DNA of 49,888 nt from Burkholderiales bacterium (GTDB lineage Bacteria > Pseudomonadota > Gammaproteobacteria > Burkholderiales > Burkholderiaceae_D). The stretch is taken from NCBI GenBank assembly GCA_038318315.1, contig JBBQCA010000001.1, positions 1-49,888 of the forward strand, read 5' to 3'. Both the position numbers and the translations under genes were made by a program. How positions within the stretch are numbered: the first letter of the stretch is position 1; every line of letters begins with the position of its first letter. The notes beneath the pieces are model-generated. The model ran no database searches. It was not told where the DNA came from and saw nothing but the letters and a program-made list of their open reading frames with translations. Of this stretch, positions 1,907-37,229 are shown piece by piece.

Positions 1907-1987
1907 TACGTGTCACGAGCGGCGCTGCGTTTTTCACTCGAGGCGCCGCCCGAGCGCTGGATTCATGATCCAAACCGGAGATTCTCG

Positions 1988-3031: not shown

Positions 3032-3049
3032 TGGAAGTGGCGTGAGGCC

Positions 3050-6618: not shown

Positions 6619-6817
6619 AATCGACCGAGAAAATTCGCACGGCGGATGGGCCTCGGGCCATCCACCAAATCAACTTTCGCTCGCGTGTGCCGATAACAGT
6701 TGTCGATATCGTGAAGACGCGACCGGCCCGACGAACATAACACGGCGTCGTCGCACGCGAAGCAGGGTCGCGCAACCCGCGCACGCACGCGCATACGCAG
6801 CGCCAACAAGGACATTG

Positions 6818-7861: not shown

Positions 7862-7875
7862 CCGGAGGAGACACG

Positions 7876-8277: not shown

Positions 8278-8298
8278 ACATTCAACAGGAGTTGCGTC

Positions 8299-11244: not shown

Positions 11245-11262
11245 CGCAGTCGGCCACCGCAG

Positions 11263-11919: not shown

Positions 11920-11932
11920 GATCGGCCTCGAA

Positions 11933-12358: not shown

Positions 12359-12361
12359 GGA

Positions 12362-20849: not shown

Positions 20850-21041
20850 GCGGTGGGGCTTTGAGGCGCCCGCGGGATTCGGTCGATGTCGATATTTGCG
20901 GTCCCCGCAGAAGTGCCGCGTGAAAGGGCGTTGCACCTACGTTTCTTCAGGGTTGGTCCGAGTGCGTGCAGCAATCTCGACCTCCAGAATCTCGCGCATT
21001 CACGCACTGGTTCAAATCAATCTTTCGATCAAGGAACGACC

Positions 21042-23435
21042 ATGATGTCCGCCTTCTTTCCAGTCGTTCCATTCGGTACGCCTTTAGCGACGCGCGCCAT
21101 CCGCGCATTCTGCTTCGCGCTTTGTGCGGCGCTGGTCGCGGCATGCGGTTCAGGCGGTGGAGGAGGCGGTAGCGGCGGTGGGGCGTCCGGTGGTCTCGCG
21201 GCGGTTGCGCCGGTCATCGTCGCGCAGCCCGCGCCCCTCAGCGTAAAGGACGCGCAGAGCGCGAGCTTCACCGTAACCGCGGTCGGAACCGGTCCGCTTT
21301 CGTATCAGTGGCAGCGCGACGGAATCGCAATCGCCGGGGCCACGGCCCCTACGTTCACCATCCCGGCCGTCCAGATAAGCGACAACGGCGCCGTCTTCAC
21401 GGTCGTCGTCAGCAACACGGCGGGCAGCGTACAAAGCCAGTCTTCCATGCTTACCGTCATTCAGGCAGCGCGAACCATCGCGCTACTGGCGGGCAACGCC
21501 GGCGGTCCCGGTTCGATCGATGGGACCGGCGGCACGGCGCGCCTGCTTTCGCCCACCGGAGCCGCAGTCGACACCGGTGGCACGCTCTACTTCGCCGATG
21601 GCACCACGATTCGCAAGGTCACTGCGGCGGGCGTGGTCACGACCTTCGCCGGAACCCCGAACACGACAGGCGCGGCTGACGGATTGGGTACCGCTGCCTC
21701 CTTCAGTTCACCGATCGGCGTCGCGGTCGACGGTTCGGGAAATGTATTTGTCGCCGACAGCCTGAACAACACGATACGGGAGATCACCCCGGCCGGCGCA
21801 GTGACGACGTTTGCCGGACGTGCGGGCGTCGCGGGCGCGAGCAATGGAAGTGCCGCGTCCGCAACCTTCAACACGCCTGCGGGGGTCGCGGTCGACAGCG
21901 CCGGAAACGTCTACGTCTCCGATACCGGCAATCAACTGATTCGCAAGATCAGCGCGAGCGGCGTCGTGACGACGTTGGCGGGATCGGTGGGCGTCGCGGG
22001 ATCGTCCGACGGTACCGGCAGTGCGGCGATGTTCAATTTGCCGGCGCAGATCGCAGTCGATGGTTCGTCGAACATCTTGGTCGTCGACTCGGGCAACAGC
22101 ACGATTCGCAAAGTGAGTGCCGCCGGCGTGGTGACGACTCTTGCCGGTTCACCCGGCAGCTTCGGGGCCAGGGATGGTACCGGCAGCGCGGCGAGTTTCA
22201 ACGCACCGACCGGCCTCGCGCTGGACAGCGCGGGGAACGTCTATGTCGGCGATGGGGGAAACAAGACGATACGCAAGATCACGCCTGCCGGCGTGGTCAC
22301 GACGCTGGCTGGAACGCCCGGCGCGAACGGCTCTGCCGATGGGACCGGCAGCGCGGCCTCCTTCTCGAATCCGTTCGCGCTCTCGAGCGACGCGAGCGGC
22401 ACGCTCTACGTGACCGATCGCGAAAACAATACGATTCGGAAAATCACTTCCGCGGGCGCGGTCTCCACGTTCGTCGGCGCGCCCAAGATTCAGGGGTCCG
22501 CGGACGGGTCCGGCGTCGCAGCAACGTTCAACGTGCCCATCGGCGTGGCGGTCGATGCAGCGAACAACGTGTACGTGGGGGACTTTTTCAACTCGACCGT
22601 CCGCAAGATCACGCCCAACGGCGTCGTCACGACATTCGCGGGAGCAGCGGGCCAGACGGGCGCGGCGGACGGTCTGGGCAGCGCCGCCCGATTCGTGACT
22701 CCACAAGGCGTGGCGGTCGACGGCGCGGGCAACGTGTATGTCGCCGACAAGTCGGCCAACACCATCAGGAAGATCAGCCCCGCGGGAAGCGTTTCCACCC
22801 TGGCCGGATCGCCGGGCGTCAGCGGAGCGACCGATGGCGTGGGCGCTGCTGCGACCTTCAGCCAGCCGACCAGCATCGCGGTCAGCGCGGCGGGCGACCT
22901 GTACGTCTCCGACAACAATTCCGTCATCAGGAAGGTCAGCGCGACCGGAGTCGTCACGACGTTTGCAGGGGCTGCCGGTCGTGCCGGATCGACCGACGGT
23001 CCCGGCAGCGTGGCTTCGTTCAGATTCATCCAGGGTCTTGCCTTTGACCCGTCGGGGACTCTCTACGTCGCCGACGCCGGCAACAACCTGATTCGTCGGA
23101 TCAATGCGGGTGGCACGGTCACGACGGTGGCGGGTACCTCGGGCGTTGCCGGAAGCACCGACGGTCCGTCCTCATCGGCGCTGTTTTCGTTCCCCACCGG
23201 TGTCGTCGCGGATCGTGCCGGAAATGTCTATGTCGCCGATTTTTTCGGTCCGACCATACGCAGGATCGACACCGCAGGGAACGTGACGACGGTGGCGGGG
23301 ATAGCGGACGGGCGGCGCGGCGTTCGTCCGGGCTCTTTGCCGGGGCACTTCGACGCGCCGGTCGGAATCGCGATCGATAGCGCCGGCAATCTCTATGTCA
23401 CCGATGCCAACGGCGTCCTGAGAATTACCTTCTGA
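21042..23435 (+). CDS. Lipoprotein with Ig-like domain and 12 NHL repeats (two predicted beta-propellers)
   Basis: AAGGA RBS, lipobox VAAC plus Gly/Ser linker, Ig strands PVIVAQP..YQWQRDG, and 12 copies of the ~55 aa unit F..P.G.AVD..GNVYV.D..N..IRKI...G.VTT.AG. Confidence 0.88.
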   Translation: MMSAFFPVVPFGTPLATRAIRAFCFALCAALVAACGSGGGGGGSGGGASGGLAAVAPVIVAQPAPLSVKDAQSASFTVTAVGTGPLSYQWQRDGIAIAGATAPTFTIPAVQISDNGAVFTVVVSNTAGSVQSQSSMLTVIQAARTIALLAGNAGGPGSIDGTGGTARLLSPTGAAVDTGGTLYFADGTTIRKVTAAGVVTTFAGTPNTTGAADGLGTAASFSSPIGVAVDGSGNVFVADSLNNTIREITPAGAVTTFAGRAGVAGASNGSAASATFNTPAGVAVDSAGNVYVSDTGNQLIRKISASGVVTTLAGSVGVAGSSDGTGSAAMFNLPAQIAVDGSSNILVVDSGNSTIRKVSAAGVVTTLAGSPGSFGARDGTGSAASFNAPTGLALDSAGNVYVGDGGNKTIRKITPAGVVTTLAGTPGANGSADGTGSAASFSNPFALSSDASGTLYVTDRENNTIRKITSAGAVSTFVGAPKIQGSADGSGVAATFNVPIGVAVDAANNVYVGDFFNSTVRKITPNGVVTTFAGAAGQTGAADGLGSAARFVTPQGVAVDGAGNVYVADKSANTIRKISPAGSVSTLAGSPGVSGATDGVGAAATFSQPTSIAVSAAGDLYVSDNNSVIRKVSATGVVTTFAGAAGRAGSTDGPGSVASFRFIQGLAFDPSGTLYVADAGNNLIRRINAGGTVTTVAGTSGVAGSTDGPSSSALFSFPTGVVADRAGNVYVADFFGPTIRRIDTAGNVTTVAGIADGRRGVRPGSLPGHFDAPVGIAIDSAGNLYVTDANGVLRITF

Positions 23436-24842: not shown

Positions 24843-26504
24843 TCAATCAAGCTTCTCGAGCCACCGGTAATTACCCGCCTGTCCTGCGACCCTGTATTGC
24901 TTCTTCAGATAGTCGTCGAGCAGAGTGACATGACTGGAACGTGCGCTTTCGTTCGGCTCACGTACGCGATCGGTTCCCAGAAAGAGAACGACGACCCTCA
25001 CGTTCTTGCTTTCCAAATCGTCGATGATCACTCGCTGCACCGATGCCGTTGTGACTTGTCCGGGATGCAGTTCGTGATACCGAGTGGCGCTATCGCGCTC
25101 GGCAAGAAAATAGAACAGGACGTCGTTGAGAAGGACCACGTCATGACGACCGTTGCCTACGAATATCTTTTCGCCCGGAGGAACATGCGCGCGAACGTAG
25201 TCGAGTGCGGCAGCCTGATCCGGTAGAACCAGCAATCCGCCAGCGCGGGGGAAATTCGCCGATCGGGAAAGCGCCGTCGAGTTTGCTCGCAAGCCTTCCT
25301 GCCATTTCAACTCCGTTTGCGCCGTATATATCGGAGCGGCCAACATGGCGAGAAACGCAATCGCCAATACCGCTCCGAAGGCGTGAAATAGCCAACCCCG
25401 TGGCAGCGCAGACCACACCACGGCCCCGAGCAGGAAGCTCAGAATCATTACGTGAATGAGGTGCGCGAGTTGCGGCCTCACCAAGGACTTCAGGAACATC
25501 AGTCCGACCAGCAATGCGAGAAAAAGCACGACCTTGCGGACTTGCGCATATTTCTCCGGCGGCATCGAATGCTGCGCACCAACCAGAAATAAAACGGCGA
25601 TCGCGAGGATCACAAAATGAAAGTAAAAAGGAAAAATAGTTTCCGGTGAGCCGCTGAAGATGGTCGGATAAGGTAGCGACCGGACGGCGGGATATACGGT
25701 CGCCAGGAAGACGATCAACTGATCGAACACATCGGCTGCGGGCGCTTCTGCCGCCAAGTAAAGAACCAGGGGCAAGGCGCCAACGGCGACGCCGGCGCCA
25801 AGCGCAATTCCCATGTGCAGAAGATTCGATGGGCGATTGGCATTCGACCGGACGGCGTCGCGTTCGATAAAGTGCACGCCGAATACCGCCAGGCCTTCGG
25901 CAATGAAAACGTAGAAGGCGATGTCGTGGCGGAAAGCAACGAGCAGCCCCGTGAACAACCCCGTCATGAACAGGTTTCGAATGACCGATTGGTTATGCAG
26001 GAAGCCGATGAAAAACCACACGCTGGCCAGCGTCAGCAATAGCGCGGGGATCAGGGGATAGCCGTAAAAGCGGATGCCCTGCAGCCACACGACACTCATG
26101 ACCGCCGTCAGCAGCGCGTAACGCCGCGGGGCCAGCCGCGCGGTGATCAGGTAGCCGAGCAATACGATTGCTGCGCGCAGCGCGATATCCCAGGCGCGCT
26201 CGACGGCCAGCGACGATCCGAACAACTTGAAGAGCGCGGCGATCGCCAGGAGTTGCCCGGGTGGATAAAGCACCCAGAAATCTCGATAGGGAAGGTCTCC
26301 CTGCAGGATCCGTTGCGCCCCGTATGCAATCACGCCTTCGTCGTAGAAATTGAAGGCAGTAGGGTCTCGACGCAGCCACAGGAACGCCAGCGACACGCCG
26401 AATACAAGCGCGCCCCAGAGCCACTTTCCCGGGAGCCACTGCCGCTTCCCGGCCACCTCGACGGGCAAGCGGGCAAGCTTGTTTTCCGGAATCACGTCTT
26501 GCAT
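24843..26504 (-). CDS. GT-C fold polyprenyl-phosphosugar-dependent glycosyltransferase (ArnT/PMT-like)
   Basis: N-terminal TM, then DEG motif and YRDFWVLYPPG, about 11-13 TM segments and a soluble C-terminal domain. Confidence 0.72.
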   Translation of the reverse strand: MQDVIPENKLARLPVEVAGKRQWLPGKWLWGALVFGVSLAFLWLRRDPTAFNFYDEGVIAYGAQRILQGDLPYRDFWVLYPPGQLLAIAALFKLFGSSLAVERAWDIALRAAIVLLGYLITARLAPRRYALLTAVMSVVWLQGIRFYGYPLIPALLLTLASVWFFIGFLHNQSVIRNLFMTGLFTGLLVAFRHDIAFYVFIAEGLAVFGVHFIERDAVRSNANRPSNLLHMGIALGAGVAVGALPLVLYLAAEAPAADVFDQLIVFLATVYPAVRSLPYPTIFSGSPETIFPFYFHFVILAIAVLFLVGAQHSMPPEKYAQVRKVVLFLALLVGLMFLKSLVRPQLAHLIHVMILSFLLGAVVWSALPRGWLFHAFGAVLAIAFLAMLAAPIYTAQTELKWQEGLRANSTALSRSANFPRAGGLLVLPDQAAALDYVRAHVPPGEKIFVGNGRHDVVLLNDVLFYFLAERDSATRYHELHPGQVTTASVQRVIIDDLESKNVRVVVLFLGTDRVREPNESARSSHVTLLDDYLKKQYRVAGQAGNYRWLEKLD

Positions 26505-27421
26505 GTCGCTCCCTTGCGCGCGAGCTCGTCGCGCCACCACGCCACGCTTCGCCGAATTCCGGATTCGAGTGTGAAGGAAGACGAGAAATGGACCTCGTCA
26601 TTCAAGCGGCGCGTATCGGCTGCGATGCGATCCGGCTCTCCCGGAACCGCGGGCCTCGCACCCCAGCGGATCAGATGCGATCGCTCGGTCACGGCGCCGA
26701 TCATGCGAACGACTTCGCTGACCGGTCGCGCGCTTCCCGATGCGATGTTGACCGGTCCCTCTACCGCGCCCGACAGCAGCGCGACGAGTGCATCGGCCAC
26801 GTCGTCCACATACATGAAATCGCGCAGTTGACGGCCTTCGGTGCAAGCAACCTCGCGATTGTTCAGCAAGGACTCGATGACCGACGAGACCAATCGACCG
26901 GGACGTTCATGTTCGCCGTACATGAAGAACAGCCTCGCCCATGCCATCGACAGACCGGTGCGGGCCGCAAGCGATTCCACCGCCTTGTGGAGTTCGAGCT
27001 TGCAGCGACCATAGAACGTCGCGGGCAGCAAGGGCGTGACGAACTCCGTGCAGACTTCGCCGGTCCACGCGTATTCGGCGCACGTGCCCGCGATTACCGC
27101 ACGCGATCCGCCCGCTTCGACGAACGCTTCGACCAGCGCCTTGCCGGCTTCGACCCAGAGCGCATTTTCGGCGGCGGTCCAGAATTTTCCGGGGAGCGCG
27201 TACCACGCCAGATGCAGGAGATGCGTCGGTCGAACGGCGTTCACGAGGGCCAGCGTGGCGGCCGGGTCGAGCAGGTCGCAGGCATGGGGCACGACACCGG
27301 GTAACGCCCACCCGCCGGGCGCCGACCTGCTCACCGCGTGCACTTCGAATGCGCGGTCCAACAGATGCTGTTGAGTCTTCCGGCCGACAAAACCGCCGGC
27401 TCCCGTAAGCAGGACACGCAT
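26492..27421 (-). CDS. NAD-dependent epimerase/dehydratase-family protein, probable NDP-4-keto-6-deoxyhexose 4-reductase
   Basis: TGAGGFVG, HLAW, TCAEY, YGRCK (YxxxK) and RDFMYVDD. Confidence 0.82.
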   Translation of the reverse strand: MRVLLTGAGGFVGRKTQQHLLDRAFEVHAVSRSAPGGWALPGVVPHACDLLDPAATLALVNAVRPTHLLHLAWYALPGKFWTAAENALWVEAGKALVEAFVEAGGSRAVIAGTCAEYAWTGEVCTEFVTPLLPATFYGRCKLELHKAVESLAARTGLSMAWARLFFMYGEHERPGRLVSSVIESLLNNREVACTEGRQLRDFMYVDDVADALVALLSGAVEGPVNIASGSARPVSEVVRMIGAVTERSHLIRWGARPAVPGEPDRIAADTRRLNDEVHFSSSFTLESGIRRSVAWWRDELARKGATCKT

Positions 27422-27432
27422 GATCGGCAACG

Positions 27433-27960
27433 TCAGAAGAAATCCGGAAACTTCGCGTCGCGTTCCGAAATGATCGGTCGACTCACCGGCCAGACGATGC
27501 CGAAGGCCGGGTCGTTCCAGCGCACTCCGGTGGCCAAGTCAGGTCGATGGCGCTCGCTCATCTGGTAGAACACTTCGGCGGAGGGAGTCAGCGTCACGAA
27601 GCCATGCGCGAATCCGGAAGGGACATAGACGGCGCGCCGGTTATCGCTATTGAGTTCCACGCCGAACCACCTGCGAAACTGCAACGAATCCCGGCGCAGA
27701 TCGACCATCACGTCATAAATCGTACCCGCAGTGCATCGAACCAGTTTGGCCTCTCCGAAAGGCTCGCGCTGAAAATGCATTCCGCGCAGCGTACCGGTCT
27801 TTTCATTGAAGGAAAGATTGCACTGCGGGAATTCATGACAAAGCCCGCGCTCGGAAAATTCGTCGCTGCAGAAAGTGCGCGCAAAGAAACCGCGCTCGTC
27901 GGTTCGCGTTTGTATGTCGACCACGTACGCGCCCGCGAGCGGCGTCTCGACGAAGTCCAT
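27433..27960 (-). CDS. rfbC: RmlC/RfbC-family NDP-4-keto-6-deoxyhexose 3,5-epimerase
   Basis: DERGFFAR, GTLRGMHFQ, KLVRC, GFAHGF and WNDP. ATG overlaps the upstream stop. Confidence 0.9.
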   Translation of the reverse strand: MDFVETPLAGAYVVDIQTRTDERGFFARTFCSDEFSERGLCHEFPQCNLSFNEKTGTLRGMHFQREPFGEAKLVRCTAGTIYDVMVDLRRDSLQFRRWFGVELNSDNRRAVYVPSGFAHGFVTLTPSAEVFYQMSERHRPDLATGVRWNDPAFGIVWPVSRPIISERDAKFPDFF

Positions 27961-29201
27961 CAGAAACGCTCCAGCTTTGGCACCGGCACGACAAACTGTC
28001 CATTCCATTGCCGGATATCGCGCATCTGTTCCGCGATTTCATTTCTCAGATTCCAGGGAAGAATCAAGACGAAATCCGGACGCGTTTCGAAAATTCGCTC
28101 GGGCGGGTAAATAGGGATGCGCACGCCGGGCAGGTAATGCGATTGTTTATGCGGGCTGAGGTCGACCGTGTACTCCAGCAGTTCCGGCCCGACTCCGCAG
28201 TAATTCAGCAGCGTGTTGCCTTTGGCGGGAGCGCCATAGCCGACCACGCGCTGTCCGCTGCGTTTGGCGTCGATCAGGAACTCCAGCAGCCCAAGCTTGA
28301 TCTCCACCACCCGCTGCTGGAAATTCCGGTAGATCGCCATGTCCTCCAGTCCGGCCTGTTGCTCGCGCGAGCGTAGCGCCGGCACGCGGGCGCTCTCCGG
28401 TACGACGGTGTTCTCGCCCAGCCGCGCAAAAACCCGCAGCGACCCACCGTGCGTGGGCAGTTCCTCGACGTCGAATACCGTCAAGCCGTGACGGCTGAAG
28501 ATTTTTTGAACGACACCCAGCGACAGATAAGAAAAATGCTCGTGATAGATGGTGTCGAATTGGGACTGCTCGATCAAATTGAGCAAATGCGGGAATTCAA
28601 CAGTGACGATTCCTCGAGGTTTCAAAAGGCATCGCAAGCCCGCCACGAAATCATTGATATCCGGAACGTGCGCAAGAACATTGTTGACCGCAATCAAATC
28701 CGCGCAATGCCCGGCCTGGGCCAGTCGAGTCGCAGTAGCGACCGAAAAGAAACTCACATCGGTAGGAATGCCTTTTTGTTCCGCAACAGCGGCAACATTG
28801 GCTGCCGGTTCGATACCCAATATCGGTATGCCGGCCTGCGCGAAATACTGTAGAAGGTAGCCGTCATTGCTCGCTACCTCCACCACTTTCGATGCGCCGG
28901 TAAGGCCCAGTGTCTCGATCATCCGCGCCGAATAAACCTGGCAGTGCCGGAGCCAGCTTTCCGAATAGGAAGAAAAATAACTGTAGTCGCTGAATATGTG
29001 CTGCGGGCTTTCGAACTCCTGCAATTGCACCAGAAAGCATTGGTCGCACACATAAACCCGCAACGGATATGTCGTCTCCATCATCTGGAGCCGTGCCGGC
29101 GGAATCAGCGAGTTTGCAAGCGGTGACGTTCCCAGGTCCGCCATGATTTCGTGGAGCGGAGCGGAACAAAAGCGACATCGCGGTTGATTCTCTTTTTCCA
29201 T
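27960..29201 (-). CDS. NDP-hexose 3-C-methyltransferase (Zn-binding, SAM-dependent)
   Basis: CRFC..CDQC Zn site, EVASNDGYLL, NNVLAHV, DTIYHEHFSY, THGGSLR and GYGAPAKGNTLL. Confidence 0.88.
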   Translation of the reverse strand: MEKENQPRCRFCSAPLHEIMADLGTSPLANSLIPPARLQMMETTYPLRVYVCDQCFLVQLQEFESPQHIFSDYSYFSSYSESWLRHCQVYSARMIETLGLTGASKVVEVASNDGYLLQYFAQAGIPILGIEPAANVAAVAEQKGIPTDVSFFSVATATRLAQAGHCADLIAVNNVLAHVPDINDFVAGLRCLLKPRGIVTVEFPHLLNLIEQSQFDTIYHEHFSYLSLGVVQKIFSRHGLTVFDVEELPTHGGSLRVFARLGENTVVPESARVPALRSREQQAGLEDMAIYRNFQQRVVEIKLGLLEFLIDAKRSGQRVVGYGAPAKGNTLLNYCGVGPELLEYTVDLSPHKQSHYLPGVRIPIYPPERIFETRPDFVLILPWNLRNEIAEQMRDIRQWNGQFVVPVPKLERF

Positions 29202-29210
29202 TGCAGGATT

Positions 29211-30341
29211 TCAGTTCAGGAAGCGTTCGATTTGTGCTTTGGTGATCGTCTCGGCACTCTCGCCTTGCGAGACGCGCCGATACCAGTCCACCGTCCATTC
29301 AAGCGCGATACTCAAGGGAAGCGCCGGACGCCAGCCCAGGTCCTGCCGCGCCAGCGTGCAGTCGAGTTCCAGTCGCCCGGCTTCATGCGGTTGTCGCTCG
29401 GTCTCGAGGTCCACCGGCACGGGTGTGCCTCCGCGGCTACTCCACAACTCCACGACCCTGGCGACGACCGTCGCAACCGGCCAGGTATCGATTTCATCGG
29501 GTCCGAAATTCCAGCCGCGAGCAAACGTGCTCGTCTGTGCGCTCCTTTTCGCGTTCGTCTCGCCCCACAGTTTTTCGGCCAGCAACATGTAGCCGTTCAA
29601 TGGATCCAGAACGTGCTGCCAGGGACGAAGCGCGTCGGGATTGCGGATGCGAATCGCGTGGCCGGACAGCATCGCGCGTATGCAATCCGGCAACAACCTG
29701 TCCGTTGCCCAATCCCCTCCGCCGATGACGTTGCCGGCGCGGGCCGAGGCCAGCGCGACTTTGGGACCGGAAGGATCCGCCCCCGAAAAAAACGATTCCC
29801 GATAAGCCGATGTCACCAATTCAGCGCAGCCCTTGCTATTGCTGTAGGGATCTCTTCCCCCCAGACGGTCGCCTTCGCGATAACGGTGCTCTGCCTCGTC
29901 ATTTTCATAGCACTTGTCACTCGTGACGTTGATCACCGCGCAATCGAGCGCCAGTTCCCGCACGGCCTCGAGCAGGTGCACCGTACCCATGACATTGGTC
30001 GAATAAGTGGCAAGCGGATCGCGATAGGAATTGCGCACCAGCGACTGGGCGGCCAGGTGAAAAACGATGGCGGGTCGCAATTCCAGAAGCGTCGACCGGA
30101 GCGCAGCATAGTCGCGCACGTCGCCCCGCACATCGGCCCGCCCGTCACCTTTTCTCGAGACGAGATGCTTGCCGATCCCGGCCATCCGATAAAGGCTGGG
30201 GTCGGTCGGCGGTTCGAGCGCGAAGCCATGGACATCGGCGCCCAGCGCGTCCAGGCACAAACTCAACCAACTGCCCTTGAAGCCCGTATGTCCGGTGATC
30301 AAGACGGACTTGCCGCGCCAGAACGCGGGATCGGGCGTCAC
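29211..30341 (-). CDS. rfbG: CDP-glucose 4,6-dehydratase
   Basis: FWRGKSVLITGHTGFKGSWL, TSDKCY, DPYSNSK, RAGNVIGGGDW and RPWQHVL. GTG overlaps the rfbF stop. Confidence 0.94.
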   Translation of the reverse strand: MTPDPAFWRGKSVLITGHTGFKGSWLSLCLDALGADVHGFALEPPTDPSLYRMAGIGKHLVSRKGDGRADVRGDVRDYAALRSTLLELRPAIVFHLAAQSLVRNSYRDPLATYSTNVMGTVHLLEAVRELALDCAVINVTSDKCYENDEAEHRYREGDRLGGRDPYSNSKGCAELVTSAYRESFFSGADPSGPKVALASARAGNVIGGGDWATDRLLPDCIRAMLSGHAIRIRNPDALRPWQHVLDPLNGYMLLAEKLWGETNAKRSAQTSTFARGWNFGPDEIDTWPVATVVARVVELWSSRGGTPVPVDLETERQPHEAGRLELDCTLARQDLGWRPALPLSIALEWTVDWYRRVSQGESAETITKAQIERFLN

Positions 30342-31138
30342 CAGAGTTTCCAGGGCGGGCTGCCGCCGGACCAGAGCGATTCGAGCTGGCGTTTGTCGCG
30401 CAAGGTATCCATCGGTTGCCAGAAGCCCTCGTGCTTGAACACCGACAGCTGGTTCTCGTGCGCGAGCGTTTCCAGCGGCTCGTTTTCCCACGAAGTTTCG
30501 TCGCCGGCAATGTAGTCGAGACAGCGAGGCGACAAGACGAAAAACCCTCCGTTGATCCAGCCGCCGTCGCCGAGAGGCTTTTCCTTGAACGCGAGCACCG
30601 CATCGCCATCGATTTCCAGCGCGCCGAAGCGGCCCGGCGGACGCGCCGCCGTGACGGTCGCAAGACGCCCTTGCGCCCGATGAAAGTGTGTCAACTCGTC
30701 AAGCGCGACGTCGGCGAGGCCGTCCCCGTACGTGAAGTAGAAATCTTCGCCGCCGAGATAATCCCGAACTCTTTTCAGGCGGCCTCCGGTCATGGTGTCG
30801 CTGCCGGTATCGACGACCGTAATCTGCCAGGGCTCCGCTGAATTCTGCAAGATCTCGACTTTGTTATTGGCAAGGTCGAAGCGCACGTCCGATCCATGCA
30901 GAAAGTAATTGGCGAAGTATTCCTTGATCATGTAACTCTTGTACCCGGCGCATATGATGAATTCGCGCACGCCGAATGCCGAATAGAGTTTCATGATGTG
31001 CCAGAGTATTGGCTTTCCGCCAATCTCCACCATCGGTTTGGGTTTCAGCGATGTTTCCTCTGCCAGGCGAGTACCGAGGCCGCCCGCCAGAATCACTGCC
31101 TTGCGAATGTTCCCGCCAATGTTCCCGCCAATGTTCAC
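30338..31138 (-). CDS. rfbF: Glucose-1-phosphate cytidylyltransferase
   Basis: KAVILAGGLGTRL, PKPMVEIGG, TGGRLKR, INGGFF and FWQPMDTLRDK. Confidence 0.95.
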   Translation of the reverse strand: MNIGGNIGGNIRKAVILAGGLGTRLAEETSLKPKPMVEIGGKPILWHIMKLYSAFGVREFIICAGYKSYMIKEYFANYFLHGSDVRFDLANNKVEILQNSAEPWQITVVDTGSDTMTGGRLKRVRDYLGGEDFYFTYGDGLADVALDELTHFHRAQGRLATVTAARPPGRFGALEIDGDAVLAFKEKPLGDGGWINGGFFVLSPRCLDYIAGDETSWENEPLETLAHENQLSVFKHEGFWQPMDTLRDKRQLESLWSGGSPPWKLW

Positions 31139-31141
31139 GTA

Positions 31142-32179
31142 TCAGGCCCTTTTTTGAATCGATGATTGTCGGGCTCGGCTCGTTCGCGCCAGCCACAGCG
31201 CGCCGCCCGGAAGGCCCAGCGCGATCTGCATCAGGCCGTAGGTGACCGAAATGGCCAAGGCGTCGCTGACCGTGACTCCGAACTGGCCCAGGCCGAAGAT
31301 CATGGCACCTTCCCTGACGCCCCATCCTCCATACGAGATGGGAATCATCGACACCAGCATGATCGCCGGCACGACGAGCAGCGCAGGCCCGAAATGCAAA
31401 GGAATATCCATTCCTCTTGCACACAGATAGATCGCCACCACCAGCAGAAACTGCACCGCCGTGGAAAGCGCGATGATGAGCGCGCTGGTCGCAGTGGAAT
31501 AAAGTACTTTTCGCAGATCGCCTATCAGTTTTCCCAAAGGCCGCGCGATTCGATAATGCGCCAGCAATCGTGCGATCAGATTTCCAAAGACAAACAATCC
31601 CGTCGATCCGCATAAACCGAGCACCGCGATGAACGTGAATAAACGGTTCATCGTCGCGCTGTCCGCGGCTATTTGCGGAAAAACGAGAAAGGTAACGGAA
31701 ATGATCAGCACCAGGACAACCAATGCCACTGCGCGGTCGCACACGATGGCGGTGACCGCCCGCCCGAGCGGCACGCCCTCGCGAGACGAGAGCCACGCGC
31801 GCACGGCATCGCCGCCGACCGCCGATGGAAGAACCTGATTGAAAAACTGACCGATCAGCGTCAGCCTGAAAACCTGCCTAACCGGCATGTACGCATCGAC
31901 CAGTCGGTTGACCAGCAGCCACCGCAAACTGGCGAGCGTGAGTTGAAGCAACAAGACACCCAAGGCGATCGCGGCCACACCCAGCTGCATGCTGCGTATC
32001 TGCGTCAATACCGGCGCGAGATCGACTTTACCCAACAGATAAGCGACCAGAGCGATCGTGACGCCGAGTTTCAGTCCGAACTTGATCCACGCGAAAGTCT
32101 TTTGCTTCATCTCATTCGTCATCTCGTAGCCGCGGATTCGTCCGCTCCTCGGGAGCCGACCCGCTTTGTCGCCATTCAT
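31142..32179 (-). CDS. Lysylphosphatidylglycerol-synthase-TM (UPF0104/AglD2-like) flippase-like membrane protein
   Basis: RW..L, FFNQVLPSAVGGDAVR, DR and PISYGGWGVREG motifs. Start is 32179 (overlaps the upstream stop) or slightly downstream. Confidence 0.85.
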   Translation of the reverse strand: MNGDKAGRLPRSGRIRGYEMTNEMKQKTFAWIKFGLKLGVTIALVAYLLGKVDLAPVLTQIRSMQLGVAAIALGVLLLQLTLASLRWLLVNRLVDAYMPVRQVFRLTLIGQFFNQVLPSAVGGDAVRAWLSSREGVPLGRAVTAIVCDRAVALVVLVLIISVTFLVFPQIAADSATMNRLFTFIAVLGLCGSTGLFVFGNLIARLLAHYRIARPLGKLIGDLRKVLYSTATSALIIALSTAVQFLLVVAIYLCARGMDIPLHFGPALLVVPAIMLVSMIPISYGGWGVREGAMIFGLGQFGVTVSDALAISVTYGLMQIALGLPGGALWLARTSRARQSSIQKRA

Positions 32180-32913
32180 CAGAATTGGAGTCTCTTGTAG
32201 ATACTCCACGGCAACAATCTGAGTATTGCCGCGATCACCGTCCAATAACGTGGCAGAAAAATGTTTCCCTTGTCGCGGTTCAGGCGATTCACGACATATC
32301 GGGCGACGCGGTCGGGCGACGCCGGCGGAAACAGCAATTTGCGCCCGAAGGTCTGTTGGGTATTCAGATAGCCCAGGTGATAGAACTGAACGTGGACGTC
32401 CGAACCGGCGCAGCGATGCCGCAGGCTTTCAAAATAGGACGCAAGTCCTCGTTTGGCCGCAGCATAAACGACGTTGGCGTTGCGACCCCGTATCGCCGCG
32501 ATCGATCCGAAGCCGACGATATTCGCCGGTCCGGAGGTCAGCATCTGGGGCAGGAATTCGGCAACCGTGACCATGACGCTGGTGAGATTCACGTCGAGCA
32601 GGCGGCGGGTCTCGGCCGTGCCGAGCGTCCCGCGATCGTCCTCGAAGGTAAAGCCCGCCGGAAAGAAAAGCCCGTGAATCTCCTGCATCTGGCTGGTCGC
32701 ATCCCGCAGCAAGGCCAGCAATTGATCGAGATCGGCGGCATCGGCCGCCACGGCCACGACGTGTACCGAATACCTGAGGCGCAACGATGCCGCCTGCGCT
32801 TCGACGTCGCGCGCATCTTGCGCGACCAGCACGAGATCATGACCGCGAGCGGCGAGCGCTTCGCTGAGCGATCGGCCCAGTCCTGCGGATGCTCCGACGA
32901 CGATGGCGTTCAT
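32179..32913 (-). CDS. Short-chain dehydrogenase, DprE2-like
   Basis: GASAGLG, SIAAIRGRNANVVYAAAK and C-terminal LP...YKRL. Coupled to the DprE1-like gene. Confidence 0.82.
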   Translation of the reverse strand: MNAIVVGASAGLGRSLSEALAARGHDLVLVAQDARDVEAQAASLRLRYSVHVVAVAADAADLDQLLALLRDATSQMQEIHGLFFPAGFTFEDDRGTLGTAETRRLLDVNLTSVMVTVAEFLPQMLTSGPANIVGFGSIAAIRGRNANVVYAAAKRGLASYFESLRHRCAGSDVHVQFYHLGYLNTQQTFGRKLLFPPASPDRVARYVVNRLNRDKGNIFLPRYWTVIAAILRLLPWSIYKRLQF

Positions 32914-34262
32914 AAGCCGAGACGTTCGGAGACTTCGGAGCGAAAGCGGCGCTCGGGATCGAATGCGCTCAACTGTCGGCGAAAGGCGGCGATCTCGGGA
33001 TAGGTCTGTTCGACGATTTCGCGCGGCAGCCTCGAATCCTTGATGATGTTGGGCCGGCCGCGTACCCGCAATACCAGCGCATCGAGAAACGCGAGCATCT
33101 CGCCGGCATTCCTGTCGCGGGGAAAATCAAGCGCCAGGCAGACGCCTCGACCGTTGAAACGCAGCAGTCTGGATTCGCCGCCGAATATCTTGGCCGAAGC
33201 GAGCGATATGGCGATTCCTCTCGATCGTAAATAATCGGTCAACTCGCGCGTCAATTGATCGACATACTCGCTGGCGACGATGAATTGATATTCGTGAAAA
33301 CCGCGACGACCGAACAGGCTGAAATAGAACTGATTGCTCTCGAGCGGGAATAAGGCCTGATGAATATCGACTCGCCGATGGCGCGATTTACCGTTGAACC
33401 GATGCTTGTACAACCCGTTCATCCACTGCGCCGTATGACGGTTCATCAATCCAAACGGCAATCGCGCCCGCCCTTCGGAAGTCAGTTGCGGACCTTCGTG
33501 GATTTCGTTACTCGCACGCTCGCCCGATGTCGGTTGTCCTTCCGGCACGAACCCGGCACGAAATAGAAACCCTTCGCCAAAGCGGTTCCCGGCGCGCATC
33601 AGGTCGTGCCAGGTATAGACGAAATCCGCTGTCTCCGATGCCGTCTCGAGGGCATGGAGACCCGCGGCCAGATTTGCAACGCGAAGTGCCTCGATATCGA
33701 TCAGGCATCCCGGTAATCGTTGCAGGCGCAGTTCGACCGAGACGATGTGGCCGGTCAACCCCAGGCCTCCGCAAGTCAATTCGAAGATGTCCCGTTCCCG
33801 CTCGCGCGAAAGTTCGAGAACGCCGTGCGCGGGATGAAACAATTCGATGGACTCGACTTGCTCGATGAAATTTCCGTCGCGTTTTTGATTCTTTCCGTGA
33901 ACGTCGGCGGCGATGCAGCCCCCGACCGTGATTCGCCCGTGCCCGGGCTGGATGGGAAGATAGAACCCGTGCGGAAGCAAAAGCGCACAAAGCTCGCCCA
34001 GCGAAATCCCCGCCTCGACTTTCACGCGGGCTCGCGCGCCATCGAGTTCCAGCGCGCGATTGAAGGCGCCGTGCTCCACCGAAATTCCGTCGGCGGAAAA
34101 ACTCGCCGGCGCGTACGACAGTCCGGCGCCGCGCGGAATCGAGACGGCGACTCCCGGCATGTCCAGCAAATGACGATAGCGATCGGGACGCTGCATAGTC
34201 ACCGATGCCGCAACGCCGCCATCGAAGCTGACCAGGTCTTGTCGGCGCGTTGGCGCGCTCAT
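32910..34262 (-). CDS. FAD-binding oxidoreductase, DprE1-like (polyprenylphosphoryl-sugar 2'-oxidase family)
   Basis: RGAGLSY, PG..TVGG.IAADVHGKN, GGLGLTG, EYQF, LALDFP, KDSR and DPERRFRSEVSERL. Confidence 0.85.
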   Translation of the reverse strand: MSAPTRRQDLVSFDGGVAASVTMQRPDRYRHLLDMPGVAVSIPRGAGLSYAPASFSADGISVEHGAFNRALELDGARARVKVEAGISLGELCALLLPHGFYLPIQPGHGRITVGGCIAADVHGKNQKRDGNFIEQVESIELFHPAHGVLELSRERERDIFELTCGGLGLTGHIVSVELRLQRLPGCLIDIEALRVANLAAGLHALETASETADFVYTWHDLMRAGNRFGEGFLFRAGFVPEGQPTSGERASNEIHEGPQLTSEGRARLPFGLMNRHTAQWMNGLYKHRFNGKSRHRRVDIHQALFPLESNQFYFSLFGRRGFHEYQFIVASEYVDQLTRELTDYLRSRGIAISLASAKIFGGESRLLRFNGRGVCLALDFPRDRNAGEMLAFLDALVLRVRGRPNIIKDSRLPREIVEQTYPEIAAFRRQLSAFDPERRFRSEVSERLGL

Positions 34263-34275
34263 TTTCGAATACGCG

Positions 34276-35211
34276 CTAGTCGGACTGCGGACGCGAAAAG
34301 CGGCGCTGCACGATGAAGTTCGGCCGGCCCAGTCCGTTCTTGTACGTGCGCGCGACATACAGCGCAATGAAGGCGATCGTTCCCCCGATATATCCGCAGA
34401 ACAGCAGCGCGTTCAACAACAGCAGCCACGCCTCGTTCTCCCGCAGATACCACGCGCCCAGGAGACCGGTCGCGAGCAACCAGAACGGCAGCAGGTAGAT
34501 GGGCAATCGAAGCATCAATGTCGTGGAGGAAAGGATGCCGGCGACTGCAAACAGCGTCATGCCGCGAAAATTGTAATGCGTCTCTCCCGCGATACGTCGT
34601 TGCCGTTTGTAAGGTATTCCCTTGCGGCGAAAGCCGACTCTGGCAATGGAGCTTCTGATAAAAGGGAATGAACTGCGATCGCGAATGACCGCGTCGCGCA
34701 CCTCGGCCGTGAAGAAGGCGAACTCGGCCAGATACAGAATGATTTCATCATCGCCGACACGACGCACGACGTGATAAAAAAGTTTGCGCAGCGCTTTCAG
34801 GAAACCATTCTCGACGCGATCGATGCGTTCCCCATAAACAATGTCGTAACCCTCTTCATAGGTTCGAACGAAGTCGAGGATCATTTCCGGAGGATCCTCG
34901 CAGTCGACGTCGATAAAAGTCATCAATTCGCCTTTGGCGTGATGCAGGCCACATTCGAGCGATCTTTGATAACCGACGTTCGTGCTCAGGCTGATGTAAT
35001 ACACAAACGGATGATTGCCCGCCAAGTCCCGAAGCGCCTGCAAGGTTCCATCGGTCGATGCATTGTTCAGGAACAGCAGGTCGACTTTGTATCTCGCGGA
35101 AAGACTCTCGATCACCGGCAACATGCGCGAGAAGAACAGTGGGACGGTCTTTTCCTCGTTGAATACCGGGCAGATCACGGTCAGGTGTTGACGACGAATT
35201 TCCGAATTCAT
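34276..35211 (-). CDS. GtrB/ArnC-like GT2 polyprenyl-phosphate glycosyltransferase
   Basis: PVFNEE, STDGT, DVDCEDPPE, GYDIVYGER, two C-terminal TMs and RPNFIV. Confidence 0.87.
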   Translation of the reverse strand: MNSEIRRQHLTVICPVFNEEKTVPLFFSRMLPVIESLSARYKVDLLFLNNASTDGTLQALRDLAGNHPFVYYISLSTNVGYQRSLECGLHHAKGELMTFIDVDCEDPPEMILDFVRTYEEGYDIVYGERIDRVENGFLKALRKLFYHVVRRVGDDEIILYLAEFAFFTAEVRDAVIRDRSSFPFIRSSIARVGFRRKGIPYKRQRRIAGETHYNFRGMTLFAVAGILSSTTLMLRLPIYLLPFWLLATGLLGAWYLRENEAWLLLLNALLFCGYIGGTIAFIALYVARTYKNGLGRPNFIVQRRFSRPQSD

Positions 35212-35346: not shown

Positions 35347-36357
35347 TTACCTGCTTCGAAAGCGCGCCCTGGCGATCGCTCTCGCGCGGCGCACGAGGCC
35401 GGCAACGCCGGTCGGCATCAGATACATGAAGCCGATCAGGAAGACGCCGTAGATCGCCCACGGCGCCGCCTTGGAAATCTGGTCGGCGACGTTGGGGACG
35501 AACTGGATGAAGAGCGCGCCGAAGAAGGCGCCCGAGATCGAGGCGAGCCCGCCGATCACGACACCGACCACCAAGCTGATCGACAGGAAGATCGTGAACG
35601 AATCGGGCGCGATGAATTGCACGACGATCGCGCCCAGCGCGCCCGCGATGCCGGTGTACATCGCCGAGACGCCGAAGGTCAGCGACTTGTAGAGCGCGAT
35701 GTTGACGCCCATCGCAACGGCTGCGATCGGCTGGTCGCGGATCGCGACCATCGCGCGCCCGATCCGACCGCGCAGCAGGTTCCACGCGAGCAGCATCATC
35801 ACGAGCGTGCAGAACAGCGTGAAGAAATAGAGCCACTGGTCCTGCGACAGCGCCATCCACTGCGGCAACCATGACGGCGCGTCAGGCTTGACGATGACGA
35901 TGCCCTGCGCACCGCCGGTCCATTTCCCGATCAACTTGTATTTGAGGATCTGCGGCATCGCCACGCCGAGCGCGAAGGTCGCGAGCGCGAGATACAGCCC
36001 TTCGAGCCGCAATGCCGGCAGTCCGAACAGGAATCCGCTGACCAGGCACACCGCACCCGCGATCGGGATCGTTGCCCAGTACGGAATGTTGAAGCGATCC
36101 ATCAGGATCGCGGCCGTGTAGGCGCCGATCGCGTAGAACGCGCCGTGGCCGAGCGAGATCTGACCGTTGTAGCCGGTCAGCATGTTGAGGCCCATCAACG
36201 CGATCGCATAGACCAGCGCCAGCGTGAATTGGAACGTGCGGTAGTTGCTGATGAAGAAAGGCAGCACGCATGCGGCGACCAGCAGGGCGACAAGGCCCGC
36301 GATCTGCCACATGGTCGGGCGCGACGAGAGCGGACGACCGACCGTCATGGTCTTCAT
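35347..36357 (-). CDS. livM: Liv-type ABC transporter permease (LivM-like)
   Basis: GLNMLTGYNGQISLGHGAF, LRLEGLYLALAT and GRAMVAIRD. Confidence 0.9.
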   Translation of the reverse strand: MKTMTVGRPLSSRPTMWQIAGLVALLVAACVLPFFISNYRTFQFTLALVYAIALMGLNMLTGYNGQISLGHGAFYAIGAYTAAILMDRFNIPYWATIPIAGAVCLVSGFLFGLPALRLEGLYLALATFALGVAMPQILKYKLIGKWTGGAQGIVIVKPDAPSWLPQWMALSQDQWLYFFTLFCTLVMMLLAWNLLRGRIGRAMVAIRDQPIAAVAMGVNIALYKSLTFGVSAMYTGIAGALGAIVVQFIAPDSFTIFLSISLVVGVVIGGLASISGAFFGALFIQFVPNVADQISKAAPWAIYGVFLIGFMYLMPTGVAGLVRRARAIARARFRSR

Positions 36358-36359
36358 CG

Positions 36360-37229
36360 TCAGACCCGCTTCACCTGAACGCTGCCGAACAGGCCTTGCG
36401 GCCTGACCACCAGCACGGTGACGATCAGCACCAGCGCCACCGTGAGCTTGATCTCGGTGCCGATGTAGGTGCCGGCCACGTTCTCGAGCACGCCCACGAT
36501 CAGGCCGCCGAGCACCGCGCCTCCGGGACTGTCGATGCCGCCGAGCAAGGCACCCGCGAAGGCGTAGAGCAGGATGCCCGACATCATGTTGGGCTCGAGG
36601 AAGACGATCGGCGCGACCATCATCCCGGCGATCGCACCGATCGCCGATGCCAGCCCCCAGCCGAGCGCGAGCATCCAGCCGACGCGAATCCCGACCAGCC
36701 GGCTCGACTCGGGATTCTGCGCGGCCGCGCGCATCGCCAGACCCAGCGGCGTGAAGCGAAAGAACACGTACAGGAGCGCGAGCACCATCAGCGTGATCGC
36801 GAGCGAGCCGAGCTCGTGCGACGACACATAGGAATTGTCGAACAGCGGCTTGGCGGGAAAGGGGCTCGGGAAGGATTTGATGGTGTATGAAAAAATCCAG
36901 CCGGCCAGGCTGTTCAGGATCACGAGCAAGCCGATGAACACGATCACGACCGCGAGGATCGAGGAGTTCTCCACCGGCCGAACGATCACGCGTTCGATCG
37001 CGACGCCGGCCACGAAGGCGACACCGACGGTGATGAAGAACGCTCCCCAGTACGGCATGCCCGCATTGATCAGGCTCCATGCGATGTAGGTCGAGCACAT
37101 CGCCATCTCGCCCTGCGCGAAATTCACCAGGTGGGTCGCCTGATAGATCATCACCAGCGCGAGCGCGACGCTCGCATAGATGCCGCCGGTCGCGAGGCCG
37201 GACAGGATCTGATGGATGAGGAGGTCCAT
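36360..37229 (-). CDS. livH: Liv-type ABC transporter permease (LivH-like)
   Basis: GLATGGIYA, VNFAQGE, GLAMRAAAQN and LLGGIDS. Confidence 0.9.
   Translation of the reverse strand: MDLLIHQILSGLATGGIYASVALALVMIYQATHLVNFAQGEMAMCSTYIAWSLINAGMPYWGAFFITVGVAFVAGVAIERVIVRPVENSSILAVVIVFIGLLVILNSLAGWIFSYTIKSFPSPFPAKPLFDNSYVSSHELGSLAITLMVLALLYVFFRFTPLGLAMRAAAQNPESSRLVGIRVGWMLALGWGLASAIGAIAGMMVAPIVFLEPNMMSGILLYAFAGALLGGIDSPGGAVLGGLIVGVLENVAGTYIGTEIKLTVALVLIVTVLVVRPQGLFGSVQVKRV

What the first reader, a model, noticed from the sequence alone, without database searches (positions are those of the whole stretch)
24843..35211. Self-contained lipid-carrier glycosylation cassette joining a CDP C-methyl-deoxysugar pathway, DprE1/E2-like epimerase, flippase and GT-C
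Seen: ten co-oriented, mostly start/stop-overlapping genes. In order they are a GtrB-like GT2, DprE1-like, DprE2-like, UPF0104 flippase-like, rfbF, rfbG, C-methyltransferase, RmlC-like epimerase, reductase and GT-C. Known: RfbF, RfbG, a 3-C-methyltransferase and a 4-reductase make CDP-3-C-methyl-6-deoxyhexoses (cereose-type sugars in Bacillus cereus). GtrB/flippase/GT-C triads decorate cell-surface acceptors outside the cytoplasm, and DprE1/E2 epimerise a lipid-linked sugar at C2. Inference: this is one pathway that makes a branched deoxysugar, loads it on undecaprenyl-P, remodels it on the lipid, flips it and transfers it to a periplasmic or surface acceptor. No wzx/wzy/wzm/wzt is present, so it looks like a decoration system rather than an O-antigen locus. 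I do not know of a described system with this combination.
Basis: partly seen in the sequence, partly recalled or inferred. Interest (0 to 1): 0.8.

Follow-up and report, generated by a model that had tools for sequence, protein, structure and literature searches.

The report
Branched-sugar surface decoration cassette with lipid-epimerase
A ten-gene cassette, gained and lost as a unit in this bacterial genus, likely builds a rare methyl-branched sugar, loads it on a membrane lipid, likely inverts one of its hydroxyls there with relatives of the tuberculosis drug target DprE1/DprE2, and would attach it to the cell surface, a combination not found in the papers searched.

Summary
All ten genes are real and correctly named. 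The cassette sits inside a liv operon. It is syntenic in G011, absent from that site in G006 and deleted whole in G007.

The two halves are linked. All 7 whole genomes with this GT2 subfamily plus the DprE1-like gene carry the C-methyltransferase in the same locus, in several gene orders. An independent GT2-anchored search gave 3 of 3 hits beside a C-methyltransferase; two lack DprE1.

The DprE1-like protein belongs to a distinct 39-row clade: 0 of 39 rows lie near a phosphoribose synthase (43 of 68 other rows do) and 35 of 39 lie near a GT2.

Best reading: a three-component glycosylation system fed by a CDP-3-C-methyl-6-deoxyhexose, with an optional epimerase working on the lipid-linked sugar. 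In several relatives it lies inside wzm/wzt O-antigen loci, so O-antigen is a likely acceptor; here the acceptor is unknown.

Against: three complete genomes carry the epimerase clade without a C-methyltransferase. No chemistry was tested. New variant of a known kind.

The parts
34276..35211 (-). GtrB-type GT2 of a distinct subfamily (here 'GT2X'); predicted undecaprenyl-phosphate sugar synthase with two C-terminal hydrophobic segments
   Evidence: PF00535; sll0501/GtrB E 2e-34, then ArnC; subfamily alignment of 18 with invariant DxDCEDPP motif; hydropathy
32910..34262 (-). DprE1-like FAD oxidoreductase of a clade not linked to phosphoribose synthase; predicted oxidase half of an epimerase
   Evidence: NF053785 247 bits, under cut-off; DprE1 structures E 8e-44; 39-row clade, support 100; H122, G123, K124, W218, Q326, K358, K408 invariant
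32179..32913 (-). DprE2-like SDR; predicted reductase half; deleted in G011
   Evidence: PF00106; NF053786 79 bits, under cut-off; GxxxGxG and YxxxK motifs; G011 keeps only the first few codons, no orthologue found there (best 30%)
31142..32122 (-). UPF0104/AglD2-type membrane protein; predicted flippase (start at 32122 or 32110)
   Evidence: PF03706 E 1e-48; TIGR00374 over cut-off; family flippase role is predicted, not shown (PMC5898192, PMC12713373, passages)
30338..31138 (-). RfbF, glucose-1-phosphate cytidylyltransferase
   Evidence: TIGR02623 432 bits, cut-off 300
29211..30341 (-). RfbG, CDP-glucose 4,6-dehydratase
   Evidence: TIGR02622 456 bits, cut-off 278
27960..29201 (-). NDP-hexose 3-C-methyltransferase
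   Evidence: PF08484 + PF08421; D-mycarose 3-C-methyltransferase E 5e-87, TcaB9 E 4e-73; two CxxC motifs
27433..27960 (-). RmlC-like 3,5- or 5-epimerase
   Evidence: PF00908; TIGR01221 170 bits, cut-off 156
26492..27430 (-). NAD-dependent extended SDR; predicted 4-ketoreductase (start at 27430 or 27421)
   Evidence: PF01370; YxxxK motif; role inferred from context
24843..26504 (-). GT-C fold glycosyltransferase, 553 aa; predicted to move the sugar from the lipid to an outside acceptor
   Evidence: AlphaFold pLDDT 92.7; Foldseek DPY19/STT3/AglB/AftA/ArnT; VIA Pmt4 Z 24.6, rmsd 4.3, 368 aligned, ArnT Z 20.3, rmsd 4.9, 433 aligned; D55/E56 in at least 90% of 63 homologues; many homologues carry PF13231
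23494..24717 (-). livK-like periplasmic binding protein; downstream flank of the insertion site (context, not part of the pathway)
   Evidence: PF13458; next to livM with no cassette in G006
35347..36363 (-). livM-like ABC permease; upstream flank of the insertion site (context; start position inferred)
   Evidence: PF02653

Best explanation
The cassette is likely one three-component glycosylation pathway that makes a CDP-linked 3-C-methyl-6-deoxyhexose, loads it on undecaprenyl phosphate, likely inverts its C2 hydroxyl on the lipid, and would flip it out for a GT-C to attach to a surface glycan. Step 1: RfbF and RfbG give CDP-4-keto-6-deoxyglucose (family assignments shown over cut-off). Step 2: the C-methyltransferase, RmlC-like epimerase and reductase give a 3-C-methyl-6-deoxy sugar, probably of the L series (inferred; stereochemistry open). 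Step 3: GT2X transfers it to Und-P (inferred from GtrB kinship and linkage to the C-methyltransferase). Step 4: the DprE1/DprE2-like pair oxidises and re-reduces the lipid-linked sugar. C2 is the likeliest site, because C3 is tertiary and cannot be oxidised, C4 is set earlier, and DprE1/E2 act at C2 (inferred). This step is an optional diversifier that can be gained or lost. Step 5: the UPF0104 protein flips the donor (inferred). Step 6: the GT-C (fold shown) adds it to an outside acceptor, most likely O-antigen or another lipid-linked surface glycan (inferred from relatives; not known for this genome).
For: The cassette moves as a unit: syntenic in G011, empty site in G006, whole deletion leaving a 109-bp GT-C end in G007, GC3 0.66-0.75 against 0.85-0.90 in three neighbouring genes. 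7 of 7 whole genomes with GT2X and the DprE1-like clade (G000, G011, G890, G483, G601, G583, G941) have the C-methyltransferase in the locus, in several different orders; in G011, G890, G483, G601 and G941 it is the genome's only match. A GT2X-anchored search of two 401-genome samples gave 3 new GT2X genes, all within about 1 kb of a C-methyltransferase; G961 and G1603 lack DprE1, have a PMT_2-like neighbour and branch deepest in the GT2X tree. G052 has another GtrB inside an rfbF-rfbG-C-MT-rmlC-reductase block with GtrA and GT87. DprE1 tree of 107 rows: in one 39-row clade, phosphoribose synthase is near 0 of 39, a GT2 near 35 of 39 and a C-methyltransferase near 15 of 39; in the other 68 rows, 43, 1 and 0. 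The catalytic core is kept while pocket residues invariant in synthase-linked enzymes differ. wzm/wzt or WsaF-type rhamnan genes lie beside the module in G483, G601, G583, G890, L050, L051, L055, L058.
Against: G006 (98% complete), G122 (97%) and G046 (99%, one contig) carry the DprE1/E2-like pair with a different GT2 and no C-methyltransferase match in the genome; G046 also lacks RfbF. The clade therefore acts on other sugars too. 6 of 18 GT2X loci of 14 kb or more (L052, L057, L067, L069, L074, L078) show no C-methyltransferase within the flank held; their wider records could not be read. G011 keeps an intact DprE1-like gene without the reductase. This genome has at least four other GtrB-like GT2 loci or GT-C cassettes that could supply another lipid donor. 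No wzm/wzt or Wzt_C was found in this 79%-complete genome. The GT-C's best fold match is a protein O-mannosyltransferase. The GT2X tree warns of long-branch joins at the two deepest rows. Kin are not independent. No activity was tested.
Confidence: 0.57

Rival explanations
1. Two neighbouring modules. GT2X (or another GT2) and the DprE1/E2-like pair make an epimer of a common lipid-linked sugar, such as Und-P-glucose to Und-P-mannose, for the GT-C, while the CDP C-methyl sugar serves a cytoplasmic transferase elsewhere.
For: Three near-complete genomes have the epimerase pair and no C-methyltransferase; 6 of 18 long GT2X loci show none nearby; in G601, G583, L055 and L058 the CDP block faces the other way.
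Against: GT2X lies beside a C-methyltransferase even with no DprE1 (G961, G1603). The CDP block is inserted between GT2X and DprE1 in G483. The window's cassette has no other transferase for the CDP-sugar. The three genomes without a C-methyltransferase have a different GT2 type. The block was deleted with the rest in G007.
Confidence: 0.2
2. One pathway, but the DprE1/E2-like pair does not epimerise C2 on the lipid. It acts on the soluble CDP-sugar, or at C4, or leaves a keto sugar.
For: Many pocket residues differ from synthase-linked DprE1; G011 keeps the oxidase without the reductase; C2 inversion of CDP-sugars is known chemistry for tyvelose epimerases (PMC7851689 and PMC13098431, search listing only).
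Against: The oxidase gene nearly always adjoins a GT2 (35 of 39). The characterised DprE1/E2 act on a polyprenyl-phosphate sugar at C2 (PMC11127046, passages and Discussion part 1). The catalytic core is conserved.
Confidence: 0.13
3. On the acceptor only: in this organism the GT-C glycosylates a protein (pilin, lipoprotein) or lipid A rather than O-antigen. This is compatible with the main pathway.
For: Best fold match is Pmt4 (Z 24.6), ahead of STT3/AglB/ArnT (about 20). GT-C homologues occur in Chloroflexi and Methylomirabilota by source names. The window locus has no O-antigen genes, and this genome has several such cassettes.
Against: The same GT-C family lies just upstream of GT2X-DprE1-DprE2-wzm-wzt in L055. 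This genome has rml genes and a Wzz-like gene, so it likely makes a polysaccharide. All fold matches are at 10-16% identity and show no function.
Confidence: 0.35
4. The pair is an ordinary arabinofuranose epimerase whose phosphoribose synthase lies elsewhere or is missing from the assembly.
For: Nearest named families are DprE1 and DprE2; this genome is 79% complete; G941 and G483 have weaker UbiA-family matches far from the locus that were not examined.
Against: 0 of 39 clade loci have the synthase nearby. 7 of 9 clade genomes checked have only 1-2 high-scoring UbiA-family genes, including G006, G122 and G046 at 97-99% complete; genomes with canonical DprE1 show the weaker synthase match beside it. 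Scores are far under the DprE1/E2 cut-offs.
Confidence: 0.04

Closest known systems
GtrA/GtrB/Gtr* three-component O-antigen glucosylation (Salmonella, Shigella; as described in PMC11127046, introduction read)
   Same: GtrB-type GT2 making an Und-P sugar, a predicted flippase, and a GT-C acting outside the cytoplasm.
   Different: Donor here would be a dedicated CDP branched deoxysugar made in the cassette, not UDP-Glc or UDP-Gal; the flippase is UPF0104-type, not GtrA; an epimerase pair is added.
Pentofuranose three-component systems (Citrobacter youngae O1/O2, GT136; mycobacterial DPPRS-DprE1-DprE2; Pseudomonas pilin arabinosylation; PMC11127046)
   Same: A lipid-linked donor remodelled by an epimerase before export; epimerase genes can be gained or lost to change the product, as in G011 here.
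   Different: Those start from PRPP through a UbiA-family phosphoribose synthase, which the paper says shares no similarity with GtrB enzymes. Here that synthase is absent (0 of 39 loci), the entry enzyme is GtrB-type, and the sugar would be a branched hexose. The authors knew of no other epimerases in O-antigen side-chain systems.
Bacillus cereus CDP-cereose/cillose four-gene operon (Li et al. 2017, PMC5418060; title seen in a reference list; paper not held; content recalled)
   Same: RfbF, RfbG, a 3-C-methyltransferase and a 4-reductase making CDP-3-C-methyl-6-deoxyhexoses (recalled).
   Different: This cassette adds an RmlC-like epimerase (L-series product likely), a lipid carrier step, a flippase and a GT-C; no sequence comparison with the Bacillus enzymes was made.
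ArnC/ArnD/ArnEF/ArnT lipid A aminoarabinose pathway (recalled; ArnC and ArnT appear)
   Same: A dedicated nucleotide-sugar pathway, GT2 loading on Und-P, a tailoring step on the lipid, flipping and GT-C transfer.
   Different: Different sugar, different tailoring chemistry (redox, not deformylation), different flippase; the GT-C has no ArnT family hit. This genome has a separate arn-like locus on C106.

Membership tests
Three-component extracytoplasmic glycosylation system | GtrB-type GT2 (Und-P sugar synthase architecture) | tested here: met
   Best solved relatives sll0501/GtrB E 2e-34 and ArnC over residues 9-302; DxD motif and two C-terminal hydrophobic segments
Three-component extracytoplasmic glycosylation system | Flippase gene in the cassette | tested here: inconclusive
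   PF03706/TIGR00374 over cut-off, but the family's flippase role is only predicted (PMC5898192, PMC12713373 passages); no GtrA here
Three-component extracytoplasmic glycosylation system | GT-C fold transferase with acidic residues after the first helix | tested here: met
   D55 and E56 in at least 90% of 63 sequences
Three-component extracytoplasmic glycosylation system | Und-P-sugar intermediate made and transferred to an outside acceptor | not testable with these tools
   Needs lipid mass spectrometry and mutants
PRPP-fed pentofuranose (DPPRS/PPPRS-DprE1-DprE2) pathway | UbiA-family polyprenyl phosphoribose synthase linked to the epimerase | tested here: not met
   0 of 39 clade loci; only two high-scoring UbiA-family genes each in G000, G011, G006
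DprE1 (NF053785) / DprE2 (NF053786) equivalogs | Score over the curated cut-off | tested here: not met
   247 against 500 bits; 79 against 250 bits
DprE1-like flavoenzyme superfamily | HGK motif and active-site Gln/Lys residues of DprE1 | tested here: met
   H122, G123, K124, W218, Q326, K358, K408 in 100% of both groups; they align with His132, Gly133, Lys134, Trp230, Gln336, Lys367, Lys418 of the active-site list in PMC6128881 (mapping worked out from the alignment)
CDP-3-C-methyl-6-deoxyhexose pathway (cereose/cillose type) | RfbF, RfbG, 3-C-methyltransferase and 4-reductase present | tested here: met
   TIGR02623 and TIGR02622 over cut-off; PF08484/PF08421; PF01370; reductase role inferred
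CDP-3-C-methyl-6-deoxyhexose pathway (cereose/cillose type) | Product identity and stereochemistry | not testable with these tools
   Needs in vitro reconstitution and NMR
Stand-alone O-antigen synthesis locus (Wzx/Wzy or Wzm/Wzt) | Polymerase or ABC exporter and backbone transferases in the locus | tested here: not met
   None in or near the cassette; present beside the module in several relatives

The most novel reading that the evidence does not exclude
A previously unrecognised clade of DprE1/DprE2-like enzymes, spread across Proteobacteria and uncoupled from the PRPP route, epimerises hexose-type sugars on undecaprenyl phosphate after a Leloir GT2 has loaded them. In this cassette it works on a methyl-branched deoxysugar, making the first three-component system that builds a branched sugar from scratch, re-sets its stereochemistry on the lipid carrier and adds it outside the cell.
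Probability: 0.5. Interest if true: 0.75.

Novelty: new variant of a known kind. Interest (0 to 1): 0.63.

Why it matters
The DprE1/DprE2 chemistry described in the papers read acts on a lipid-linked ribose made from PRPP, and the 2024 paper on Gram-negative three-component systems knew of no other side-chain epimerases (PMC11127046). A large DprE1-like clade fed by GtrB-type enzymes would extend this flavoenzyme family, a major tuberculosis drug target, to pyranose substrates and show how its pocket is re-tuned. It also predicts that three-component systems deliver exotic branched sugars, not only Glc, Gal, aminoarabinose or pentoses. Databases now label these proteins 'decaprenylphospho-beta-D-ribofuranose 2-oxidase', which is probably wrong. 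The claim is directly testable: five soluble enzymes, one GT2 and a two-enzyme epimerase, with named bacterial homologues listed.

Tried and rejected
Pfam and NCBIfam gave no hit for the GT-C and a profile search of PDB sequences gave nothing significant; only the fold search identified it. The search for related loci in genome contigs with the single DprE1-like protein found one true relative. Viral contig scans with the DprE1-clade and GT2X alignments found none, and plasmids held only distant homologues of about 30% identity, so there is no sign of a phage or plasmid carrier in those collections. No sigma-70-like promoter was found and terminator counts were at chance level; an attractive hairpin follows livK. 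No RNA holder was listed, which is no evidence either way. The two other membrane-protein families found beside the module in O-antigen loci (alignments A4, A5) showed no profile similarity to the window's GT-C; a model of A4 was low-confidence (pLDDT 64.7) with only weak Emb-family and CBM-like matches, so their GT-C status is inconclusive. The representative-protein search and the Atlas gave no result. The first DprE1 tree run did not finish and was rebuilt with FastTree; 7 truncated rows of 114 loci with a hit were left out. The local phosphoribose-synthase profile was built from the canonical loci themselves, so 43 of 68 leans upward; the 0 of 39 does not depend on that and was cross-checked with PF01040. 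Literature: ten searches found no paper joining a GtrB-type GT2, DprE1-like genes and a C-methyl sugar; the library lacks most subscription papers, and older structural work on C-methyl sugars in LPS may be missed. Earlier scan notes: none. No complex prediction was run, since no binding is claimed.


Full report
Observation. The window is the whole of contig C1 of a 3.17-Mb, 79%-complete genome; a same-genus relative is titled a Burkholderiales MAG. Ten minus-strand ORFs fill 24843-35211 in the order given. Family searches confirm the GT2, the DprE1-like FAD protein, the SDR, the UPF0104 protein, RfbF, RfbG, the C-methyltransferase, the RmlC-like enzyme and an extended SDR. RfbF, RfbG and RmlC pass curated cut-offs; the DprE1 and DprE2 models do not (247/500 and 79/250 bits). 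The tenth protein has no family hit, but its model (pLDDT 92.7) matches GT-C enzymes: DPY19, STT3, AglB, AftA and ArnT by Foldseek, Pmt4 best by VIA (Z 24.6, rmsd 4.3, 368 aligned). Four of nine junctions overlap and eight are within 13 bp.

A mobile unit. The cassette interrupts a liv ABC-transporter operon between livM and livK. GC3 is 0.66-0.75 against 0.85-0.90 in livK, livH and leuS. Of 15 genomes of the genus, 4 hold this livK. G011 has the cassette at the same site (nine genes, 67-86% identity). G006 has the empty site. G007 keeps only the last 109 bp of the GT-C gene there and nothing else of the cassette. The likeliest history is one insertion and one en-bloc loss. G011 has also lost the SDR, leaving its first few codons, with no orthologue elsewhere (best 30%).

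The DprE1-like protein is not canonical. I gathered neighbourhoods from a metagenome scan (best 80 of 562 matches) and genome samples. A tree of 107 near-full-length rows (7 truncated rows dropped) splits into a 39-row clade holding the window protein and 68 others, with support 100 (FastTree, midpoint root). In the clade, a phosphoribose synthase is nearby in 0 of 39, a GT2 in 35 of 39, the window's GT2 subfamily (GT2X) in 24 of 39 and a C-methyltransferase in 15 of 39. In the other rows these are 43, 1, 0 and 0 of 68. Among loci of 14 kb or more, the C-methyltransferase is in 14 of 25 against 0 of 31. Whole-genome PF01040 searches show only 1-2 high-scoring UbiA-family genes in 7 of 9 clade genomes; G941 and G483 have weaker matches far away that I did not examine. 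Residues matching His132, Gly133, Lys134, Trp230, Gln336, Lys367 and Lys418 of DprE1 (active-site list in PMC6128881, passages; mapping) are invariant in both groups. Positions invariant in synthase-linked enzymes differ in the clade, among them E324, S356 (Val365) and N405. This fits the same redox chemistry on another sugar (inference). The clade is rare: 3 of 400 other genomes in the phylum sample, 3 of 250 in the family, 3 of 251 in genus g144.

Are the halves one pathway? All 7 whole genomes with GT2X plus the clade (G000, G011, G890, G483, G601, G583, G941) have the C-methyltransferase in the locus; G583's contig ends inside it. The orders differ: block after the flippase (window), after a second membrane gene (G890, L050, L051), between GT2X and DprE1 (G483), convergent (G601, G583), split around the module (G941), divergent (L055). 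To avoid anchoring on DprE1, I searched two 401-genome samples with the GT2X alignment. Three new GT2X genes appeared (G941, G961, G1603), each within about 1 kb of a C-methyltransferase. G961 (98%) and G1603 (95%) have no DprE1, have a PMT_2-like neighbour and branch deepest in the GT2X tree, with a long-branch warning. Of three weaker GtrB-level hits, G052 has its GT2 inside rfbF-rfbG-C-MT-rmlC-reductase with an O-methyltransferase, GtrA and GT87; the other two (G1227, G029) show no CDP block. So the GT2 tracks the branched sugar, and the epimerase is the add-on.

Results against. G006, G122 and G046 (97-99% complete) have the clade with another GT2 type and no C-methyltransferase match; G190 has two, on other contigs. 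Six of 18 long GT2X loci show none within the flank held; two of them are sisters of loci that have it, and their wider records could not be read. This genome has other GtrB-like GT2 genes and GT-C cassettes on C118, C165, C59 and C106, so another lipid donor cannot be excluded. Related genomes are not independent samples.

Acceptor. The window locus has no O-antigen genes. In G483, G601, G583, G890, L050, L051, L055 and L058 the module lies beside wzm/wzt or WsaF-type rhamnan genes; L055 has the window's own GT-C family upstream of wzm-wzt. This genome shows no Wzt_C but has rml genes and a Wzz-like gene. O-antigen or a similar lipid-linked glycan is the best guess; a protein or lipid A acceptor stays open given the Pmt4-like fold.

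Mechanism. Glc-1-P goes to CDP-Glc and CDP-4-keto-6-deoxy-Glc (family-level, shown), then to a CDP-3-C-methyl-6-deoxyhexose, probably L-series (inferred). GT2X loads it on Und-P (inferred, about 0.75). The DprE1/E2-like pair inverts C2 on the lipid (inferred, about 0.65 given loading); C3 is tertiary and C4 is fixed earlier. The UPF0104 protein flips it (family role predicted only; PMC5898192 and PMC12713373, passages), and the GT-C transfers it.

Comparison with print. PMC11127046 (introduction, passages, Discussion part 1 and a supplement search read) describes Gram-negative three-component systems with epimerases, all fed from PRPP by a phosphoribose synthase unrelated to GtrB, and says the authors knew no other epimerases in O-antigen side-chain systems. 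The cereose operon paper was not held; its content is recalled. PMC4053727 (passage) lists an rfbF-rfbG-C-methyltransferase block in Sinorhizobium meliloti, so that block alone is ordinary. Ten searches found no paper on this combination. PMC7725333/bioRxiv 2020.01.15.908491, PMC12961483 and PMC10050317 were read in passages only; the bioRxiv supplement on sugar pathways was not seen and may bear on how common the CDP block is.

Verdict. Observation confirmed; interpretation largely supported but refined. It works like a three-component glycosylation system and meets the testable features; it is not a member of the PRPP-fed DprE1/E2 pathway. New variant of a known kind; interest 0.63.

Noticed in passing
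L027 (G000:C118), L028 (C165), L030 (C59): This genome carries several more GT2 / UPF0104 / GT-C cassettes, with GT-C paralogues at 26-28% identity to the window's, methyltransferases, a split transketolase pair and an epimerase-GT2 fusion.
   Followed up: partly
L029 (G000:C106) 3-4813: An arn-like locus: ArnT-type GT-C, DegT aminotransferase and ArnC-like GT2.
   Followed up: no
L169 (G052:C2) 5700-14800: A complete three-component cassette for a C-methyl CDP-sugar without DprE1: rfbF, rfbG, C-MT, rmlC, GtrB-like GT2, reductase, CmcI-type O-methyltransferase, GT2, GtrA, GT87. A simpler model system for the same idea.
   Followed up: partly
L159 (G006:C9) 5880-14750: rfbF-rfbG and an NAD epimerase lie directly downstream of a type IV pilin gene and a 630-aa membrane protein, suggesting CDP-sugar pilin glycosylation.
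   Followed up: no
L063, L129, L130, L165: B12-binding radical SAM genes and asparagine-synthase-like amidotransferases recur beside the DprE1-like clade or GT2X, hinting at other tailored lipid-linked sugars.
   Followed up: no
L050 7127-9010 and 13114-15558 (families A4, A5): Two unnamed 610-660 aa membrane-protein families replace the window's GT-C in rhamnan O-antigen loci, often both together; A4 has a C-terminal CBM-like beta domain; GT-C status inconclusive.
   Followed up: partly
L171 (G007:C17) 2745-2852: A 109-bp remnant of the GT-C 3' end marks a clean deletion of the whole cassette.
   Followed up: yes
window 20886-23435: An 849-aa predicted secreted protein with an Ig domain and many NHL repeats lies just downstream of livK on the opposite strand.
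   Followed up: no
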